A stretch of 64,000 nt of DNA from Escherichia coli (lineage in GTDB: Bacteria; Pseudomonadota; Gammaproteobacteria; Enterobacterales; Enterobacteriaceae). The stretch is from assembly GCF_044324875.1 (NCBI RefSeq), contig NZ_CP172185.1, one strand, 5' to 3'. The number at the start of each line of letters is the position of its first letter. Positions within the stretch are counted from its first letter, which is position 1. Under the pieces are notes generated by a model that was not told where the DNA came from, searched no databases, and saw only the letters and a program-made list of their open reading frames with translations. Shown here in pieces: positions 16,159-22,179 of this stretch. The translations under genes were made by a program, and so were the position numbers.

Positions 16159-16524
16159 ATGACTGAAAGCATAGAATTTGTTTTGCCTTACCCGCCAACG
16201 GTGAACACCTACTGGCGACGTCGTGGCAGCACATATTTTGTATCAAAAGCCGGTGAGCGTTATCGCCGTGATGTGGCGCTCATTGTTCGCCAGCAGCGGC
16301 TGAAGTTAAACCTGTCCGGACGGCTGGCGATAAAGATTATTGCAGAGCCACCGGATAAACGTCGTCGTGACCTGGACAATATCCTGAAAGCACCACTGGA
16401 TGCGCTGACGCATGCCGGACTTCTCATAGACGACGAGCAGTTTGATGAAATCAATATTGTGCGCGGTCAGCGCGTTCCTGGGGGGCGGCTGGGCGTGAAG
16501 ATTTACAAAATTGAGAGTGAGTGA
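16159..16524 (+). CDS. rusA: Holliday junction resolvase RusA
   Basis: 121 aa; PPTVNTYWRRRGSTYFVSKAGERYRRDVA...DKRRRDLDNILKAPLDALTHAGLLIDDEQ matches the RusA family. Confidence 0.85.
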   Translation: MTESIEFVLPYPPTVNTYWRRRGSTYFVSKAGERYRRDVALIVRQQRLKLNLSGRLAIKIIAEPPDKRRRDLDNILKAPLDALTHAGLLIDDEQFDEINIVRGQRVPGGRLGVKIYKIESE

Positions 16525-17111
16525 TCGTAAATATGATATACCCGGAAATTACAGGCAAAAGCGGCGAGCATTTACGTCTAAAAACGCTGGAAGCCGTCTG
16601 GATCCAGGGGAAATTACGGATGTGGGGGCGTTGGTCGTATATCAGTGGAGGGACTAGCGGTAACATGTTTAACCAACTGCTTGTATCCAGCAAAATTACC
16701 AAAACTGCAATCAACGATGCGCTGCGCCGTATGAAAAAGTCAGGCATTACGAAACCAGAGCTCGAAGCTTATTTGCGCGAAATACTCAACAGTAAAAACA
16801 AAAGTAGTCTGGCGTTTTGCTCGGACGATGAAGGCCTGAAGATTGACGGTGTGATCGCCTCGGTGCTGATGAATAATGATTACCGTTCTCTATACGGTGT
16901 GATTGTTGGCCGGTATCGTCTGCGTAAGAGCAAGTTGCAAATGGCCAATGAGCTTCATATTAAACATCCTGACTGGGCGCTCATTACCTGTCGCCGCCGA
17001 GTTGACACATGGATAAGTTTGGCCGAATCGCTCCTGTACGTTCCACTATGTGATGCGTTTGGCACAAATAGCGACAGATTTAAATTGCAAAGTGAGCAAG
17101 AAAGTGCTTGA
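16521..17111 (+). CDS. Late-gene antiterminator Q-like protein
   Basis: 196 aa directly upstream of the tR'-like terminator and lysis genes. LEAVWIQGKLRMWGRW resembles the conserved N-terminal motif of phage 82/DLP12-type Q proteins. Family assignment is tentative. Confidence 0.6.
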   Translation: MIVNMIYPEITGKSGEHLRLKTLEAVWIQGKLRMWGRWSYISGGTSGNMFNQLLVSSKITKTAINDALRRMKKSGITKPELEAYLREILNSKNKSSLAFCSDDEGLKIDGVIASVLMNNDYRSLYGVIVGRYRLRKSKLQMANELHIKHPDWALITCRRRVDTWISLAESLLYVPLCDAFGTNSDRFKLQSEQESA

Positions 17112-17160
17112 ATTGTGATAAGCTCGGGACGAAAAGCGAACTGAGCAACATAATAGTAAG

Positions 17161-17186
17161 AACCCGCCATTGTGCGGGTTTTTTTG
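17161..17186 (+). terminator. Rho-independent terminator (tR'-like) about 50 nt after Q
   Basis: AACCCGC-CATTGTG-CGGGTT followed by TTTTTTT. Confidence 0.6.
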
Positions 17187-17510
17187 TCTGCACAACAGGT
17201 AAGAGCACTGAACCCGCAGACCTCGCGGAACTGGTGAAAGGTGCCGCGCAGTGCTCTTATCGTTGTGGTGAAGCTCAATGGCGAGCTAGCAGATAGGCGA
17301 CAGTGAAAATACTAGTCATGTATCTGACCGCCGCGCGTACTGCAATCGGCAGCGCACCGATGGAAGCCGGTTCGATTCCGGCCGCCACAACCCAAACTGA
17401 GCCGTAGCCACTGGCTGTCCTGAACTCCTCAGTGATAGTTACGCTGCGGCCTTCTTTTTCCCCTTCCTAATACAAGAACTACGCAATCCGTTACTGGCGG
17501 AGGCGTTGCT

Positions 17511-17726
17511 ATGAAATCCATGGATAAGATAACAACGGGTGTCGCCTATGGCACCTCGGCAGGCAGTGCCGGGTACTGGTTTTTACAGTGGCTTGATCAG
17601 GTTAGTCCGTCACAGTGGGCTGCTATTGGTGTGCTGGGGAGTCTGGCACTGGGCTTTCTGACTTATCTGACGAATCTGTATTTCAAAATTAAAGATGATC
17701 GGCGCAAAGTGGCGCGGGGAGAGTAG
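17511..17726 (+). CDS. S: Holin, phage 21 S21 pinholin type
   Basis: 71 aa; [71 protein letters not shown] is near-identical to recalled S21. GGAGG RBS. Confidence 0.9.
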
Positions 17727-17729
17727 GCG

Positions 17730-18041
17730 ATGAATAAAAAATACGAACTGGTTATTAAAGGGATAAGTAGTCACCCGGATAAGGTTGTGGTTACTGTGGC
17801 GCTGGAGAGCGACGGCTATCCGACGCTGTTTTCGCCGCATGTGGTGATTAAGCTTGATCGTGTTGACGGCGCAGCGCTGGAGCTTTATGAAGCAGAGGCG
17901 AAAAAACGAGCGAAGAAGATTTTTATGGATGCTGCTGCCGGGTTATGTGAAGCGTGGTCGTTGCCGGAAAAGCGCCTCCATTCAGAGGCGCGGTATACCA
18001 TAAAAATTAACGGTTCAGATAACTCAATTGCTGGTTTTTAA
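17730..18041 (+). CDS. Hypothetical protein (103 aa) inserted between holin and endolysin
   Basis: Starts 4 nt after the holin stop with GGAGAG upstream; no known motif. Confidence 0.5.
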   Translation: MNKKYELVIKGISSHPDKVVVTVALESDGYPTLFSPHVVIKLDRVDGAALELYEAEAKKRAKKIFMDAAAGLCEAWSLPEKRLHSEARYTIKINGSDNSIAGF

Positions 18042-18277
18042 CCTTTTGTCTCAGTTGGCTTTCCAATATCTTTCATTGGTAGCAGCATTTCGATATTGCT
18101 TTTGATATATGGATTATCTGCATGTTCTGTTAATTGATAAATGATAGCATTTTTTTCATTCTGGTCTAATACAGAAAACATAACTGCAATCATATATTTA
18201 AGAGCCTCAATTTCTCCTGTTGTTGAGTTGGGGGATGAACAGTCCGCTGTAACATTAATAAAAGTTTCTTTTTTCAT
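18038..18277 (-). CDS. Hypothetical AT-rich ORF (79 aa), opposite strand, inside the lysis cassette
   Basis: Convergent with 17730..18041; markedly AT-rich compared with flanks, suggesting a horizontally acquired insert. Confidence 0.4.
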   Translation of the reverse strand: MKKETFINVTADCSSPNSTTGEIEALKYMIAVMFSVLDQNEKNAIIYQLTEHADNPYIKSNIEMLLPMKDIGKPTETKG

Positions 18278-18401
18278 ATCAGATCCTTAGATGGGGTAGC
18301 TCAGCCAACCACCCGAGCCTTAACCGGAACGCCAGTGCCCACTACACTACTGGCGGGCTGAGGCTTTAACATATCCAGGGTTCAGAAAACGATAAATATC
18401 C

Positions 18402-18935
18402 ATGAGCACAAAAATCAGATACGGCCTGTCGGCTGCCGTTCTGGCGTTGATTGCTGCAGGTGCATCCGCTCCCGTCATTCTTGACCAGTTTCTGGACGAA
18501 AAAGAAGGTAATCACACTACGGCATACCGTGATGGCTCCGGTATATGGACCATCTGTCGGGGTGCCACGATGGTGGATGGAAAACCCGTTTTTCCCGGTA
18601 TGAAACTGTCGAAGGAAAAATGCGACCAGGTCAACGCCATCGAACGGGATAAGGCGCTGGCATGGGTGGAGCGCAATATTAAAGTTCCACTGACCGAAGC
18701 ACAGAAAGCGGGTATTGCGTCATTCTGTCCCTATAACATTGGCCCCGGTAAGTGTTTCCCGTCGACGTTTTATAAGCGGCTGAATGCCGGTGATCGTAAG
18801 GGCGCATGCGAGGCGATTCGCTGGTGGATAAAAGATGGTGGGCGCGATTGCCGCATACGTTCAAATAACTGCTATGGACAGGTTATTCGTCGTGACCAGG
18901 AAAGCGCATTAGCCTGTTGGGGAATAGATCAGTGA
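18402..18935 (+). CDS. R: SAR endolysin (lysozyme, R21-like)
   Basis: 177 aa. N-terminal hydrophobic signal-anchor-release segment [21 protein letters not shown] followed by a lysozyme domain ([20 protein letters not shown]). Confidence 0.9.
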
Positions 18936-19399
18936 GCAGAGTCGCCGCGATTATTTATGCTCTGGTTATCTGCACTATCGTCTGCCTGTCGTGGGCGGTC
19001 AATCATTACCGTGATAACGCCATAGCCTACAAAGAACAGCGTGATAAAAAAGTCAGTGAGCTGAAGCAGGCGATCGCCACCATCGCTGACATGCAGCAGC
19101 GTCAGCGTGATGTTGCTGCGCTCGATGCAAAGTACTCGAGAGAATTAGCCAATGCGAAAGCTGAAAATGAAACTCTGCGCGCTGATGTTGCCGCTGGTCG
19201 TAAGCGCCTGCGGGTCAATGTCAGTTGCTCCGAAGCCGTGCGTGAAGCCACCGGACCCACCAGCGTGGATAATGCAACCAGCCCCCGACTGGCAGACACC
19301 GCTGAACGGGATTATTTCACCCTCAGAGAACGGTTGATGACGATGCAGAAGCAACTGGAAGGGGCACAGGAGTATATCCGCACTCAGTGCATTAAGTAG
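18932..19399 (+). CDS. Rz: i-spanin Rz
   Basis: GTG start overlapping the endolysin stop. [40 protein letters not shown] resembles lambda Rz. Confidence 0.85.
19152..19337 (+). CDS. Rz1: o-spanin Rz1, embedded in Rz in another frame
   Basis: 61 aa lipoprotein [20 protein letters not shown] with Pro-rich [27 protein letters not shown], like lambda Rz1. Confidence 0.8.
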
Positions 19400-19441: not shown

Positions 19442-19792
19442 ATGCCATCACGAATCCCACGCGCCTGCCGTAAGCGTGGATGTGCAGGTACAACCACAGA
19501 CAGTTCTGGTTACTGCGATAAACATCGTGGCGAAGGATGGGTACAGCATCAACGCGGACTGAGCCGCCACCAGCGTGGCTATGGCTCGAAATGGGATGCC
19601 ATACGTGCGCGCATACTGAAGCGTGATAATCATCTGTGTCAGAACTGCCTGTGCAATGGGAGAGCTGTTGAAGCCAGAACTGTGGACCACATCATTCCGA
19701 AAGCTCATGGTGGCACGGATGCAGACAGTAACCTGCAGAGTCTGTGCTGGCCCTGTCATAAAGCAAAAACAGCGCGCGAACGCATCAATTGA
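19442..19792 (+). CDS. HNH endonuclease (terminase-associated)
   Basis: 116 aa with Cys clusters and HIIPKAHGGTDADSNLQSLCWPCH motif; located just upstream of terS/terL as in HK97-like phages. Confidence 0.8.
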   Translation: MPSRIPRACRKRGCAGTTTDSSGYCDKHRGEGWVQHQRGLSRHQRGYGSKWDAIRARILKRDNHLCQNCLCNGRAVEARTVDHIIPKAHGGTDADSNLQSLCWPCHKAKTARERIN

Positions 19793-19939
19793 TAACAGCT
19801 CCCATCTGCAGGGGAGGGGCGGGTCAAATCTCTGCAACCCAGGCTGCTCAGTACCGCCGCCTTGCCTTTCCTCGCATCGCCGCAGGTTCGAAAACTTTTT
19901 TTTGGAAAGTTATTAAATGATTGATAGGTAAAACCGATT

Positions 19940-20422
19940 ATGTCAGGACCCCCGAAAACCCCGCCACGCCTGCATTTGATACGAGGCAACCCCTCAAAGC
20001 GCCCCGTTAAAGACCCAAAAAAAACCGCTAAAAAGGATGAAAAAGGTCTCCCTAAAATTCCGCAACATTTAGGGTCGCAGGGGAAGTACTGGTTCAGGCG
20101 AATGGCGGAAGAACTGAATGCGGAAGGGATCATTTCTCAGCTTGATGCGCGTGCACTCGAGTTACTGGTGGAAGCCTACACCGAATACCGGCATTACTGC
20201 GAAACACTCGATGTTGAGGGGTATACCTACCGCACGGAAACGCAGAACGGTGATGTGCTGATTAAGGCACACCCGGCTGCTGCGATGAAAGCGGATGCCT
20301 GGAAGCGGATCCGGGCGATGCTTGCAGAATTTGGTATGTCACCGGCAAGCCGGGCGAAAGTAAATACCGCCGGACCGGATGATGTTGATCCGCTGGCGGA
20401 GCTTTTAAAAGCGAGAGACTGA
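19940..20422 (+). CDS. terS: Terminase small subunit
   Basis: 160 aa, basic N-terminus; stop overlaps the terL start. Confidence 0.7.
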   Translation: MSGPPKTPPRLHLIRGNPSKRPVKDPKKTAKKDEKGLPKIPQHLGSQGKYWFRRMAEELNAEGIISQLDARALELLVEAYTEYRHYCETLDVEGYTYRTETQNGDVLIKAHPAAAMKADAWKRIRAMLAEFGMSPASRAKVNTAGPDDVDPLAELLKARD

Positions 20423-22179
20423 TGGCAAAAGTGGCTGACGGGATCCGCTACGCCGAACGTGTTGTTGCAGGAGAAATTGTTGCTGGCGAATTTGTCCGCC
20501 TAGCCTGCCAGCGTTTTCTTGATGATCTGAAGTACGGCGAAGAGCGGGGGATTTATTTCAGTGAACCCCGTGCGCAGCACATCCTGAATTTCTACAAATT
20601 TGTGCCCCATGTGAAAGGGGCGCTGGCAGGCCAGCCCATTGAGTTGATGGACTGGCATGTATTTATCCTCATTAATATTTTTGGTTTTGTCATTCCGCTG
20701 GTGAATGAAGAGACCGGGGAAGTTGTCATGCGCAGCGATGGCAGCGGACGCCCGGTGATGGTGCGCCGGTTCCGGACGGCGTACAACGAAGTCGCCCGTA
20801 AAAACGCAAAATCAACCCTGTCATCGGGTATCGGCCTGTATATGACGGGGGCAGATGGTGAAGGCGGTGCTGAGGTTTATTCAGCCGCAACCACGCGTGA
20901 TCAGGCCAGAATTGTGTTTGAAGACGCCAAAAATATGGTCAGAAAAGCCCGGTCGACACTCGGGCGGTTGTTTGATTTCAACAAGCTGGCGATTTACCAG
21001 GAGCAGAGCGCATCAAAATTTGAGCCGCTTTCCTCGGATGCAAACAATCTGGACGGTCTGAACATCCACTGCGCCATTATTGATGAGCTGCATGCACATA
21101 AAACCCGTGACGTGTGGGACGTTCTGGAAACGGCAACCGGTGCCCGTCTGCAGTCCCTTTTATTTGGTATCACCACGGCAGGGTTTAACAAGGAAGGGAT
21201 TTGTTACGAGCAGCGTGATTACGCCATCAAGGTATTGCGTGGCTATAACAGCGACGTGGAGGGCGCGGTAAAAGACGACTCCTACTTTGCGATTATTTAC
21301 ACCCTCGATGAGGGAGATGATCCGTTTGATGAAACGGTCTGGCAGAAAGCGAATCCCGGCCTGGGCATCTGTAAACGCTGGGATGATCTGCGTCGCCTGG
21401 CGAAAAAAGCGAAAGAACAGGTCTCTGCGCGGGTGAATTTTTTTACCAAACACATGAATGTGTGGGTCACTGCCGAATCAGCCTGGATGGACATGATTAA
21501 GTGGGAGAAGTGCGAATATATTGCTCCACGACATGAGCTGAAAACATATCCCATGTGGGTCGGCGTTGACCTTGCTCATAAGATTGATATCTGTGCAGCG
21601 GCAAAACTCTGGCGAACGGATAACGGGCATGTTCATGCCGATTTTAAATTCTGGCTTCCGGAAGGACGGCTGGAACGATGCTCGCGGCAGCAGGCAGAAC
21701 TTTACCGGAAGTGGGCGGAGATGGATAAGCTGATTCTGACGGATGGTGATGTTATCGATCATGGCCAGATAAAAAGTGACTTACTGGAATGGACTGGTGG
21801 TGAAAACCTCAGGGAACTGGGATTTGACCCGTGGAGCGCGATGCAGTTCAGCCTGGCACTGGCTGAAGAAGGGATACCGCTGGTGGAGGTTCCGCAGACG
21901 GTTCGCAATCTGTCAGAGGCCATGAAGGAAACGGAATCACTGGTCTATGCCGGGCGTTTCCATCACAGCAATCACCCGGTCATGAACTGGATGATGTCTA
22001 ACGTTACGGTGAAACCGGACAAAAACGACAATATCTTCCCGAATAAATGCACGCCGGAAGCCAAAATCGACGGCCCTGTTGCGCTTTTTACAGCCATGAG
22101 CCGCCTTCTGGTAAATGGCGGGGACGTGAATGACTTTCTGTCCACGCTTGATCCTGATGAGGACCTGTTAATTCTGTGA
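20422..22179 (+). CDS. terL: Terminase large subunit
   Basis: 585 aa with ATPase motifs and acidic nuclease residues, recognised as HK97-type TerL. Confidence 0.9.
   Translation: MAKVADGIRYAERVVAGEIVAGEFVRLACQRFLDDLKYGEERGIYFSEPRAQHILNFYKFVPHVKGALAGQPIELMDWHVFILINIFGFVIPLVNEETGEVVMRSDGSGRPVMVRRFRTAYNEVARKNAKSTLSSGIGLYMTGADGEGGAEVYSAATTRDQARIVFEDAKNMVRKARSTLGRLFDFNKLAIYQEQSASKFEPLSSDANNLDGLNIHCAIIDELHAHKTRDVWDVLETATGARLQSLLFGITTAGFNKEGICYEQRDYAIKVLRGYNSDVEGAVKDDSYFAIIYTLDEGDDPFDETVWQKANPGLGICKRWDDLRRLAKKAKEQVSARVNFFTKHMNVWVTAESAWMDMIKWEKCEYIAPRHELKTYPMWVGVDLAHKIDICAAAKLWRTDNGHVHADFKFWLPEGRLERCSRQQAELYRKWAEMDKLILTDGDVIDHGQIKSDLLEWTGGENLRELGFDPWSAMQFSLALAEEGIPLVEVPQTVRNLSEAMKETESLVYAGRFHHSNHPVMNWMMSNVTVKPDKNDNIFPNKCTPEAKIDGPVALFTAMSRLLVNGGDVNDFLSTLDPDEDLLIL

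What the first reader, a model, noticed from the sequence alone, without database searches (positions are those of the whole stretch)
17730..18277. Two unknown ORFs inserted between holin and endolysin, one AT-rich on the opposite strand
In the phage-21-type cassette I recall, S and R are adjacent. Here a 103 aa ORF is translationally linked to the holin, and a convergent 79 aa AT-rich ORF follows, flanked by an inverted repeat at about 18299..18366. Lysis-cassette inserts are plausible places for lysis-timing modulators or abortive-infection genes.
Basis: partly seen in the sequence, partly recalled or inferred. Interest (0 to 1): 0.55.

Follow-up and report, generated by a model that had tools for sequence, protein, structure and literature searches.

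The report
YdfR gene plus antisense prophage moron
Between the holin and endolysin genes of this E. coli prophage lie a common accessory gene (YdfR family) and a rarer backward-facing AT-rich gene that appears to have its own promoter and a conserved folded RNA leader that I could not find described, so it looks like a self-contained passenger gene, not part of the lysis machinery.

Summary
A 103-aa ORF (17730-18041, +) starts 3 nt after the S21-type holin. A convergent 79-aa ORF (18038-18277, -; 32% GC against about 50%) precedes the SAR endolysin.

The 103-aa ORF is not unknown. It is YdfR/DUF1327, as in K-12 prophage Qin. Its DNA matches 58% of complete E. coli genomes and many Stx phages. 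K-12 YdfR was reported in 2026 to bind RNase E and co-purify RNA.

The 79-aa ORF is a real but uncharacterised gene (phrog_21218, dN/dS about 0.27). It occurs in about 2% of E. coli genomes and in phage Perceval. Relatives at 41-51% identity occur in Salmonella, Klebsiella and Serratia prophages. They are always antisense to the late operon, but in those three genera they lie outside the holin-endolysin gap.

New here: every copy is preceded by a TAnnnT -10 box exactly 6 nt upstream of a conserved leader. It has no Rfam match. The same leader precedes unrelated antisense ORFs in other coliphages.

Best reading: an independently transcribed moron in a cargo-swapping slot. Its protein function is unknown, and nothing ties it to lysis timing or abortive infection.

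The parts
17511..17726 (+). Class II (S21-type) holin, 71 aa
   Evidence: phrog_9876 E 1e-33 and phrog_20 E 2.5e-31. RefSeq annotates the same gene in related genomes as 'class II holin family protein' or essD.
17730..18041 (+). YdfR-family (DUF1327) late gene, 103 aa. It starts 3 nt after the holin stop codon.
18038..18277 (-). 79-aa AT-rich antisense gene ('ORF79'), convergent with ydfR, with overlapping stop codons
   Evidence: phrog_21218 over its full length, E 5.7e-47. No Pfam, NCBIfam or PADLOC hit. dN/dS 0.26-0.27 between alleles with dS about 0.4. Relatives at 41-51% identity in Salmonella, Klebsiella and Serratia. GC 0.32. pI 5.0 and no TM-like window.
18278..18361 (-). Conserved structured 5' leader of ORF79.
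- P1: UCAGCC (18361-18356) pairs with GGCUGA (18306-18301).
- P2: hairpin at 18355-18330.
- P3: GGGUGG (18314-18309) pairs with CUACCC (18299-18294). The P1 3' strand lies in the P3 loop, which makes a pseudoknot.
- Shine-Dalgarno AAGGA at about 18288-18284.
   Evidence: Covariance model R1 finds exactly one copy in the window (18275-18380, minus strand, 94 bits). It also finds one upstream of every relative tested. Pair counts: 94-96% of cells paired, compensatory changes in 4-5 of 8 P2 pairs and 6 of 6 P3 pairs. Shuffle control for P3: 0 of 5000 shuffles reach the observed value. No Rfam match.
18368..18396 (-). Candidate sigma-70 promoter of ORF79: -10 TATGTT (18373-18368) and -35 TTTATC (18396-18391), spacer 17 nt. 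The -35 box lies 6-11 nt from the endolysin ATG, on the other strand.
   Evidence: A TAnnnT hexamer lies exactly 6 nt upstream of UCAGCC in all nine lineages compared: TATGTT, TATTGT, TATGCT, TATCCT, TAAGGT. The tool's own stricter consensus scan did not flag this site. No expression data exist.
17968..17991 (-). Candidate intrinsic terminator of the ORF79 transcript, inside the 3' part of ydfR. It is an 8-bp GC-rich hairpin followed by UUUU.
   Evidence: The centroid fold of the minus strand keeps only this hairpin. In the Perceval and mEp460 alleles the stem holds a G.U pair, which is a valid pair only on the minus strand (read from alignment A3). It has only 4 U and was not flagged by the scan, so it is weak.
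18402..18935 (+). Phage lysozyme (endolysin), 177 aa. I read it as a SAR endolysin from its N-terminal Gly/Ala-rich hydrophobic stretch.
   Evidence: phrog_7 E 3e-63. 94-97% identical to rrrQ and the mEp460 lysozyme. The SAR assignment comes from reading the sequence and was not tested.
18917..19399 (+). Rz spanin with embedded Rz1 (19152-19337)
   Evidence: phrog_13 E 7e-75 and phrog_3198 E 7e-29.

Best explanation
The interval holds two genes of different standing.

(1) ydfR (17730-18041).
- It is a widespread accessory late gene of coliphage S21-type lysis cassettes. It is read from the late operon and is probably translationally coupled to the holin gene.
- Its product is a soluble protein with a three-strand, one-helix domain.
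- By analogy with K-12 YdfR, I infer that it binds RNA and/or RNase E during late development. I do not think it acts on the envelope.

(2) ORF79 (18038-18277, minus strand).
- It is a self-contained antisense moron with these parts in order: a sigma-70-type promoter whose -10 box lies 6 nt upstream of the transcript start, a leader of about 85 nt, a Shine-Dalgarno sequence, a 79-aa acidic helical cytoplasmic protein, and a hairpin terminator inside ydfR.
- The 5' end of the leader is buried in a three-helix pseudoknot.
- Because it faces against the late operon and has its own promoter, I infer that it is expressed independently of lysis, most likely from the prophage.
- I infer that the 5'-end-sequestering leader sets mRNA stability or translation.
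- The gene occupies a slot that holds unrelated small antisense ORFs behind the same promoter and leader in other coliphages. It is therefore one allele of a swappable cargo position.
- My best guess for the protein is a lysogen-expressed accessory factor acting on the host or on competing phages. That is a guess, not a result.

Shown: gene reality, family membership, distribution, the conserved leader structure and the fixed -10 box.
Inferred: transcription start, timing of expression, role of the leader and protein function.
For: ydfR:
- Pfam DUF1327 E 2e-27.
- It holds the same position in Qin, mEp460, BP-4795 and Stx phages.
- Its DNA matches 3153 of 5426 E. coli genomes.
- K-12 YdfR binds the RNase E N-terminal half in two-hybrid and co-purification assays, co-purifies RNA, and is not toxic when overproduced (PMC13232886).

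ORF79 is a real gene:
- phrog_21218.
- dN/dS 0.27.
- Full-length relatives in four genera.

ORF79 as a moron:
- GC 0.32 against 0.50 in the flanks.
- It is absent from Qin, where ydfR overlaps rrrQ, and from DLP12.
- mEp460-type cassettes keep only its last 50 bp or so.
- It is present in 101 of 5426 genomes and in the isolated phage Perceval.
- It is always antisense to the late operon, but its position varies between genera.

Promoter and leader:
- A TAnnnT box lies exactly 6 nt upstream of UCAGCC in nine lineages.
- The covariance model finds one copy per locus and nowhere else in the 64 kb window.
- P2 and P3 show compensatory changes, and the G.U pairs are valid only on the ORF79 sense strand.

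Cargo slot:
- The same leader precedes phrog_1853 (104 aa), phrog_2572 (86-88 aa), a 91-aa ORF and a 233-aa ORF in other phages.
Against: - There are no expression data, so the transcript start, the promoter and the terminator are all inferred.
- The window's -35 box is poor (3 of 6), and the tool's consensus promoter scan did not list the site.
- I fitted the P3 alignment by hand. The shuffle control allows for the freedom in register but not for shared ancestry.
- P1 is nearly invariant, so it has conservation but almost no covariation.
- In the ydfR-R slot, leader conservation could partly reflect recent recombination with the R module.
- ORF79 has no homology or fold match that points to any function.
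- Truncated alleles of 48-54 aa are common, so the gene is often dispensable.
- The YdfR link to RNase E comes from the K-12 protein, which is only 44% identical, and overproducing it changed few transcripts.
Confidence: 0.55

Rival explanations
1. ORF79 and/or YdfR is a lysis-timing modulator, for example an antiholin-like or endolysin-regulating factor.
For: - Both genes lie inside the S-R interval here.
- YdfR looks translationally coupled to the holin gene and is conserved at that position in thousands of cassettes.
- ORF79 relatives in all four genera lie within about 2 kb of lysis genes.
- PMC13232886 cites a genetic screen that linked ydfR to envelope integrity.
Against: - Neither protein has a membrane segment. 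The highest 19-residue hydropathy is about 1.1.
- ORF79 is transcribed against the late operon, so it is not co-expressed with S and R.
- Its relatives lie upstream of the holin in Salmonella and downstream of the spanins in Klebsiella and Serratia. The S-R gap is therefore not a defining position.
- DLP12-type cassettes lack both genes.
- YdfR overproduction gave no growth defect.
Confidence: 0.12
2. The RNA matters more than the protein. Transcription from the ORF79 promoter runs antisense into ydfR and the holin gene, or collides with late transcription. This would damp leaky expression of lysis genes in the lysogen.
For: - The arrangement is convergent with overlapping stop codons.
- The only candidate terminator lies inside ydfR, so the two transcripts would overlap by at least 50-70 nt.
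- The promoter and leader are more conserved than the cargo ORF.
- The cargo ORFs behind the leader are interchangeable.
Against: - ORF79 is under purifying selection, and its protein sequence is conserved across four genera.
- In Klebsiella and Serratia the convergent partner is an unrelated small late ORF, not ydfR or the holin gene.
- A Shine-Dalgarno sequence and start codon follow the leader in every lineage.
Confidence: 0.13
3. YdfR and ORF79 form a functional pair. For example, ORF79 could antagonise YdfR, or its RNase E-resistant leader could be tied to YdfR's interaction with RNase E.
For: - In E. coli ORF79 always abuts ydfR tail to tail.
- In two different Salmonella prophages its relative abuts a 97-aa ORF with weak YdfR-like similarity: BLASTP E 1e-4, hhalign E 0.011, phrog_2735 E 0.06.
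- K-12 YdfR binds RNase E.
- A leader whose 5' end is base-paired is the kind of feature that blocks 5'-end-dependent RNase E attack. This last point is my own background knowledge.
Against: - ydfR DNA matches 3153 genomes, but only 101 carry ORF79.
- The partners in Klebsiella and Serratia show no YdfR similarity.
- The Salmonella similarity is below any safe threshold.
- YdfR is not toxic, so there is no toxin-antitoxin logic.
Confidence: 0.1
4. ORF79 is a chance open frame in AT-rich spacer DNA and is not a gene.
For: - It is short.
- It has no domain hits.
- The structure model has low confidence, pLDDT 66.
- Truncated versions are frequent.
Against: - dN/dS is 0.27, against 0.64-1.4 in three of the other frames.
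- Intact relatives of 73-79 aa at 41-51% identity occur in four genera, with aligned conserved motifs.
- A conserved Shine-Dalgarno sequence and leader lie upstream.
- PGAP annotates it in RefSeq genomes.
Confidence: 0.03

Closest known systems
YdfR of E. coli K-12 prophage Qin (P76160, Pfam DUF1327)
   Same: - Same Pfam family, and both are 103 aa.
- Same position, directly after an S21-type holin gene (essQ) and before the lysozyme gene.
   Different: - Only 44% identical over the N-terminal 78 residues, with a different C-terminal tail.
- In Qin, ydfR overlaps rrrQ by 4 nt with nothing in between. Here 360 bp holding ORF79 and its leader intervene.
Lambdoid 'morons' such as lambda bor. These are independently transcribed extra genes in the late region, as defined by Hendrix and colleagues. 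I am recalling this from my own knowledge; it was not retrieved here.
   Same: - An extra gene between genes that abut in relatives.
- Deviant base composition.
- Its own promoter and terminator (inferred).
- Opposite orientation to the late operon. The bor and iss genes lie downstream of Rz in the same orientation in Perceval, AR_0085 and DLP12.
   Different: - It lies inside the lysis cassette, not after it.
- It encodes a soluble protein, not a lipoprotein.
- It carries a conserved pseudoknotted leader that is shared with unrelated cargo genes.
Alternative antisense ORFs in the same ydfR-R slot: Stx2-converting phage 86 gp06 (phrog_1853), the 86-88-aa ORF of PhiR12_2 and 2H10 (phrog_2572, annotated 'DUF1823'), and a 91-aa ORF in an IMG/VR contig (L037)
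   Same: - Same slot and same orientation.
- Same -10 box and P2 hairpin. For Stx2-86 and L037, also the same P1 pairing.
   Different: - There is no detectable protein similarity to ORF79. The hhalign result was E 0.03 with probability 1.6%, and BLASTP found nothing.
- In several of these phages the YdfR-family gene carries a long C-terminal extension, giving 169-268 aa.
5'-terminal stem-loops that stabilise mRNAs against 5'-end-dependent RNase E decay, such as the ompA 5' UTR. This is from my own knowledge and was not tested.
   Same: A helix would begin within a few nucleotides of the inferred transcript start.
   Different: - Here the 5' strand pairs with the loop of a downstream hairpin, forming a pseudoknot.
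- The element is specific to prophage cargo genes.
- Its function is untested.
Prophage-encoded Pas sRNAs next to the holin-lysozyme operon (bioRxiv 10.64898/2026.05.13.724894)
   Same: They are non-coding RNA features embedded next to coliphage lysis genes.
   Different: - The Pas genes lie between the sialate esterase gene and the holin gene, upstream of S.
- The present element lies between ydfR and R on the other strand, and it is a leader of a coding gene.

Membership tests
YdfR / DUF1327 (PF07041) | Significant match to the Pfam profile over most of its length | tested here: met
   E 2.2e-27, residues 1-94 against model positions 1-89 of 93. Also phrog_2735 E 3e-32 over the full length.
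YdfR / DUF1327 (PF07041) | Position between a class II holin gene and a lysozyme gene in lambdoid prophages | tested here: met
   The order is the same in Qin, mEp460, BP-4795, Perceval and Stx2-86.
YdfR / DUF1327 (PF07041) | Binding to the RNase E N-terminal half and co-purification of RNA, as reported for the K-12 protein | not testable with these tools
   Reported in PMC13232886. The allele here is only 44% identical.
phrog_21218 (uncharacterised phage protein family) | Full-length profile match | tested here: met
   E 5.7e-47, residues 1-79 against 1-79 of 79. The Salmonella and Klebsiella relatives also match, at E 2e-22 and 2e-15.
Moron (independent transcription unit added to a phage operon) | The flanking genes are adjacent in related phages | tested here: met
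   In Qin, ydfR overlaps rrrQ. mEp460 and BP-4795 have gaps of only about 50 bp. mEp460 retains a remnant of the ORF79 3' end.
Moron (independent transcription unit added to a phage operon) | Base composition unlike the surrounding genes | tested here: met
   GC 0.30-0.34 against about 0.50.
Moron (independent transcription unit added to a phage operon) | Own promoter and own terminator | tested here: inconclusive
   A conserved TAnnnT box lies at a fixed 6-nt distance from the leader in nine lineages. A hairpin followed by UUUU lies downstream of the stop codon. The -35 box is poor, the consensus scan was negative, and there are no transcript data.
Antiholin / holin-associated lysis regulator | A membrane-spanning segment, or similarity to the cognate holin | tested here: not met
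   The highest 19-residue Kyte-Doolittle mean is 1.07 for ORF79 and 1.08 for YdfR. No lysis-category PHROG match for either.
Known anti-phage defence or abortive-infection systems (PADLOC-DB 2.0) | Match to any defence-protein profile | tested here: not met
   No families matched at E up to 1 for either ORF.
Toxin-antitoxin pair | Co-directional two-gene operon with a growth-inhibiting partner | tested here: not met
   The two genes are convergent, not co-transcribed. Overproducing K-12 YdfR gave no growth defect.
Any Rfam 15 RNA family, including tRNA and tmRNA, for the leader | Covariance-model match | tested here: not met
   No match at E up to 5 in 18278-18400 on either strand. ARAGORN finds no tRNA there.

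The most novel reading that the evidence does not exclude
The promoter-proximal three-helix pseudoknot may be an undescribed class of cis-regulatory RNA that belongs to swappable antisense cargo genes in the late regions of enterobacterial lambdoid prophages. It would either sense a cellular or phage signal, or make these mRNAs resistant to 5'-end-dependent RNase E decay. The second possibility could connect it to the neighbouring RNase E-binding YdfR. Under this reading, the fast-diverging small helical cargo proteins would be conflict genes such as exclusion or anti-defence factors.
Probability: 0.2. Interest if true: 0.7.

Novelty: new variant of a known kind. Interest (0 to 1): 0.45.

Why it matters
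As flagged, the finding is mostly ordinary. One ORF belongs to a very common family that has a Pfam entry, and the other is an annotated hypothetical protein.

Three points make it worth a note:
[quoted passage not shown] Its fixed place between holin and endolysin has not been explained.
- **The ydfR-R junction is a cargo-exchange slot.** Different small antisense genes there share one promoter and leader.
- **The leader is a compact, covariation-supported pseudoknot with no Rfam match.** It is conserved in Escherichia, Salmonella, Klebsiella and Serratia prophages. Klebsiella relatives of ORF79 alone are recorded on more than 1000 contigs per variant.

If the leader controls expression in the lysogen, it would be a simple handle for finding and studying a whole set of uncharacterised prophage passenger genes.

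Tried and rejected
- **Homology searches for ORF79.** Pfam, NCBIfam and PADLOC gave nothing. The PDB sequence search gave only a weak match to RecA fusion constructs, inflated by their repeats, and to YvfG at E 1.2. I treat both as chance.
- **Exhaustive profile search of 1.84 billion representatives.** It added only three true relatives plus repetitive false positives.
- **Fold searches with the ORF79 model.** The model has pLDDT 66. Searches against PDB and BFVD gave no hit with E below 2.
- **Common ancestry of the different antisense cargo ORFs.** By eye they share a helix followed by an 'LLP/LDQ' motif and a second helix. The tests do not support this (hhalign E 0.03 with probability 1.6%, E 0.4, and no BLASTP alignment), so I dropped the idea.
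- **The Klebsiella 150-aa convergent partner as a YdfR relative.** Rejected.
- **The Salmonella 97-aa partner as a YdfR relative.** My first hhalign result (E 2e-22) was circular, because that sequence was part of the profile. Redone without it, the result is E 0.011, which is only a hint.
- **A tRNA-like origin of the leader.** The P2 17-mer matches a phage tRNA gene exactly. I rejected the idea for three reasons: a 17-mer is expected to hit by chance in a collection of that size, ARAGORN and Rfam find no tRNA, and the covariance model scores that tRNA at only 17 bits.
- **A LexA box.** The Klebsiella hairpin reads CTGT-N8-ACAG, but the E. coli, Salmonella and Serratia versions do not.
- **P2 as an intrinsic terminator of a short antisense RNA across the R start.** A U-tract follows the hairpin only in some lineages.
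- **P2 as a DNA palindrome or operator.** This is disfavoured by the variable loop length and by G.U pairs that are valid on one strand only.
- **Single-sequence folding of the leader.** Not significant.
- **Literature searches.** Searches for the protein accessions and for lysis-cassette morons found nothing specific.
Full report
**What is there.** The window is E. coli DNA. Its first 2.5 kb carry mtfA, tRNA-Ser and an integrase gene, and match E. coli genomes at 99.7%. The finding therefore lies in a lambdoid prophage. Around it, the ORF list and profile searches give this order:
- a DUF968 gene, a RusA gene and a Q-like gene (16521-17111)
- a promoter-like site (17059-17086) and a strong hairpin with a U-tract at 17161-17190
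- an S21-type class II holin gene (17511-17726)
- the 103-aa ORF (17730-18041)
- the 79-aa ORF on the other strand (18038-18277)
- a lysozyme gene with a SAR-like N-terminus (18402-18935)
- Rz and Rz1
- an HNH gene, then terminase genes

The 103-aa ORF starts 3 nt after the holin stop codon, with a GGAG inside the holin 3' end. The two stop codons at 18038-18041 overlap. The 79-aa ORF has 32% GC, against about 50% on both sides. The inverted repeat has arms at 18300-18311 and 18351-18362.

**The 103-aa ORF is YdfR.** It matches Pfam DUF1327 at E 2e-27 and is 44% identical to YdfR of K-12 prophage Qin. In Qin the order is essQ, ydfR, rrrQ, and ydfR overlaps rrrQ by 4 nt.
- Distribution: its DNA matches 3153 of 5426 complete E. 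coli genomes, with up to 8 places per genome. Its protein matches 95 phage records, all coliphages and most of them Stx-converting.
- Not essential to the cassette type: in DLP12, essD and rrrD abut.
- Experimental lead: a 2026 paper reports that K-12 YdfR binds the catalytic half of RNase E in two-hybrid and co-purification assays, brings down DNase-resistant nucleic acid, is not toxic when overproduced, and changes few transcripts (PMC13232886).

So this ORF is a known, very common accessory late gene. Its role in phage development is still untested.

**The 79-aa ORF is a real, uncharacterised gene.**
- Family: it matches phrog_21218 over its full length at E 6e-47. It matches nothing in Pfam, NCBIfam, PADLOC or the PDB.
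- Occurrence in E. coli: the exact protein is recorded on 815 E. coli contigs as 'hypothetical protein'. The DNA is complete in 101 of 5426 genomes and in one isolated temperate phage, Perceval.
- Selection: between alleles with dS about 0.4, dN/dS is 0.26-0.27. Three of the other reading frames give 0.64-1.4. One opposite-strand frame also gives 0.27, which I take to be an effect of codon-position overlap.
- Wider relatives: an exhaustive profile search and a second word-indexed search add relatives of 73-75 aa at 41-51% identity in Salmonella enterica, Klebsiella and Serratia marcescens. In Klebsiella, two variants are each recorded on more than 1000 contigs.
- Protein properties: it is acidic (pI 5.0), has no membrane-like window, and is predicted to form three helices at modest confidence. 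It has no fold match.
- Decay: truncated alleles of 48-54 aa are common.

**It is an insertion-type passenger, not a fixed lysis gene.** Aligning the cassettes shows that mEp460, and several hundred E. coli genomes like it, keep only the last 50 bp or so of ORF79 directly after ydfR, joined to the sequence just upstream of R. These are deletion derivatives. In every E. coli locus examined, ORF79 lies between ydfR and R. Its relatives lie elsewhere:
- Salmonella: upstream of the holin gene, convergent with a 97-aa ORF that is at best a distant YdfR relative.
- Klebsiella: downstream of the spanin genes and before the HNH and terminase genes, convergent with an unrelated 150-aa ORF.
- Serratia: downstream of the lysis genes and before Nu1.

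The constant features are the orientation against the late operon and a location between Q and the terminase genes.

**The slot is a cargo-exchange point.** Other coliphages have different contents between the conserved YdfR N-domain and R:
- almost nothing in BP-4795
- a 268-aa YdfR-family protein plus an antisense 104-aa ORF (phrog_1853) in Stx2-86
- YdfR-family proteins of 169-183 aa plus an antisense ORF of 86-88 aa (phrog_2572) in PhiR12_2 and 2H10
- a 233-aa antisense ORF in Stx1_499
- a 91-aa ORF in an IMG/VR contig

I found no significant protein similarity among these cargo ORFs.

**A conserved promoter and leader.** I printed the upstream regions of all these antisense ORFs side by side. 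They share an element regardless of cargo or genus.

*Promoter.* A TAnnnT hexamer lies exactly 6 nt upstream of the motif UCAGCC in all nine lineages compared. The hexamers are TATGTT, TATTGT, TATGCT, TATCCT and TAAGGT. Hexamers resembling a -35 box lie 16-18 nt further up, and the best is TTGTCA in Salmonella.

*Structure.* UCAGCC is followed by an 8-bp hairpin (P2). In the ORF79 family and in L037, a second hairpin (P3) follows, and its loop carries GGCUGA, the complement of UCAGCC.

*Search with a covariance model.* A model built from eight leaders finds exactly one copy in the 64 kb window (18275-18380, minus strand, 94 bits). It also finds one copy upstream of every relative, including loci fetched after the model was built: Serratia at 50 bits and S. 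Eastbourne at 87 bits.

*Pair counts.*
- On the model-derived alignment, 94% of cells are paired and 5 of 8 P2 pairs show compensatory double changes. These arise in the Klebsiella, Serratia and S. Eastbourne lineages.
- On my manual alignment of nine lineages, 96% of cells are paired. All six P3 pairs and four P2 pairs show double changes. P1 is almost invariant.
- I chose the P3 registers by hand, so I ran a control that gives shuffled flanks the same freedom of register. None of 5000 shuffles reaches the observed total, which is 43.5 against a shuffled mean of 34.7 with sd 1.6. The control ignores shared ancestry, but the P3 sequences differ outright between lineages.
- The G.U pairs in P2 and P1 are standard pairs only on the ORF79 sense strand. 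This points to an RNA structure in that transcript and not to a DNA palindrome.

*Database check.* Rfam 15 has no match in this region.

*Terminator.* On the same strand, 50 nt past the ORF79 stop codon and inside ydfR, there is an 8-bp GC-rich hairpin followed by UUUU. It is a candidate terminator.

**Interpretation.**
- Shown: two real genes, their family membership and distribution, the deletion remnant, the variable slot, the conserved leader with covariation, and the fixed -10 box.
- Inferred: the transcript starts at about 18361, so its 5' end is locked in P1. ORF79 is expressed on its own, probably in the lysogen. The leader controls stability or translation.
- Guessed: the protein is a lysogen-expressed accessory factor.

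The lysis-timing and abortive-infection ideas have no positive support. Against them stand the orientation, the solubility of the protein, the variable position in other genera, and the absence of defence-profile hits. A YdfR-ORF79 partnership, possibly through RNase E, is an attractive but weak possibility. Most ydfR genes lack ORF79, and the partners in Klebsiella and Serratia are unrelated.

**Verdict.** As flagged, the finding is largely ordinary. One ORF belongs to a known and very common family, and the other is an annotated hypothetical. The added value is the leader RNA and the cargo-slot architecture, which I could not find in Rfam or in the searched literature. Both need transcript mapping and mutational tests.

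Noticed in passing
window 17335-17393 (+): A tRNA-like 3' fragment (GGTTCGATTCC T-arm) lies between the Q region and the holin gene. It gives a sub-threshold match to the Rfam tRNA/tmRNA clan (E 1.5e-5, 20 bits against a gathering score of 47). ARAGORN calls no tRNA. It is probably a remnant of the tRNA genes that many lambdoid and Stx phages carry upstream of S.
   Followed up: partly
window 17059-17190 (+): A promoter-like site (TTGGCA-16-TAAATT) lies at the end of the Q-like gene. About 75 nt downstream is a strong hairpin followed by a run of T (AACCCGCCATTGTGCGGGTTTTTTTT). This looks like a pR'/tR'-type late promoter with a short terminated leader RNA, which would be the Q antitermination target.
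   Followed up: no
L002 (mEp460) 2536-2591; also several hundred E. coli genomes (query positions 4-55): Cassettes that seem to lack ORF79 keep about 50 bp of its 3' end after ydfR, fused to the sequence just upstream of R. A GATAAAT direct repeat lies at the right-hand junction in Perceval-type cassettes. These look like deletion scars.
   Followed up: partly
L028, L029, L030, L032 (Stx2-86, Stx1_499, PhiR12_2, 2H10): YdfR-family proteins share an N-terminal domain of about 85 aa but carry very different C-terminal extensions, giving total lengths of 103 to 268 aa. The mosaic breakpoint lies just after the conserved domain.
   Followed up: partly
window 18391-18404: The endolysin ATG (18402) has no recognisable Shine-Dalgarno sequence. 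The inferred -35 box of the ORF79 promoter lies 6-11 nt upstream of it on the other strand. In Qin, the endolysin gene instead overlaps the ydfR stop codon (ATGA). How R is translated once it is uncoupled from ydfR is unclear.
   Followed up: no
L006 804-1396; L034/L035 5229-5522: In one Salmonella prophage, a HicA/HicB toxin-antitoxin pair lies between the antiterminator gene and the pair formed by the 97-aa ORF and the ORF79 relative. In two Salmonella phage types with different antiterminator families, that pair lies upstream of the holin gene.
   Followed up: partly
L009 3930-3945 (Klebsiella leader hairpin): The Klebsiella version of the P2 hairpin reads CTGTGGTGGGACACAG, which fits the LexA-box outline CTGT-N8-ACAG. 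The versions in the other genera do not fit. This may be coincidence, or SOS control specific to that lineage.
   Followed up: no
L042 3331-3347 and L043: The 17-nt core of P2 (CAGTGGTAGGACACTGG) matches the D-arm and anticodon-stem region of a tRNA gene in an unrelated IMG/VR phage contig exactly. I judged this to be chance, given the size of the collection.
   Followed up: yes
P0007, P0057-P0061, P0068 (E. coli): Truncated or frameshifted ORF79 alleles of 48-54 aa occur on many contigs (one on 185). The gene is often decaying in resident prophages.
   Followed up: no
window 19442-22179: An HNH endonuclease gene lies directly after Rz and before the small and large terminase genes. This is the HNH-terminase arrangement I associate with HK97-like cos packaging modules (from my own knowledge, not tested). 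The prophage lies next to mtfA and tRNA-Ser (869-958), with its integrase gene at 1011-2036.
   Followed up: no
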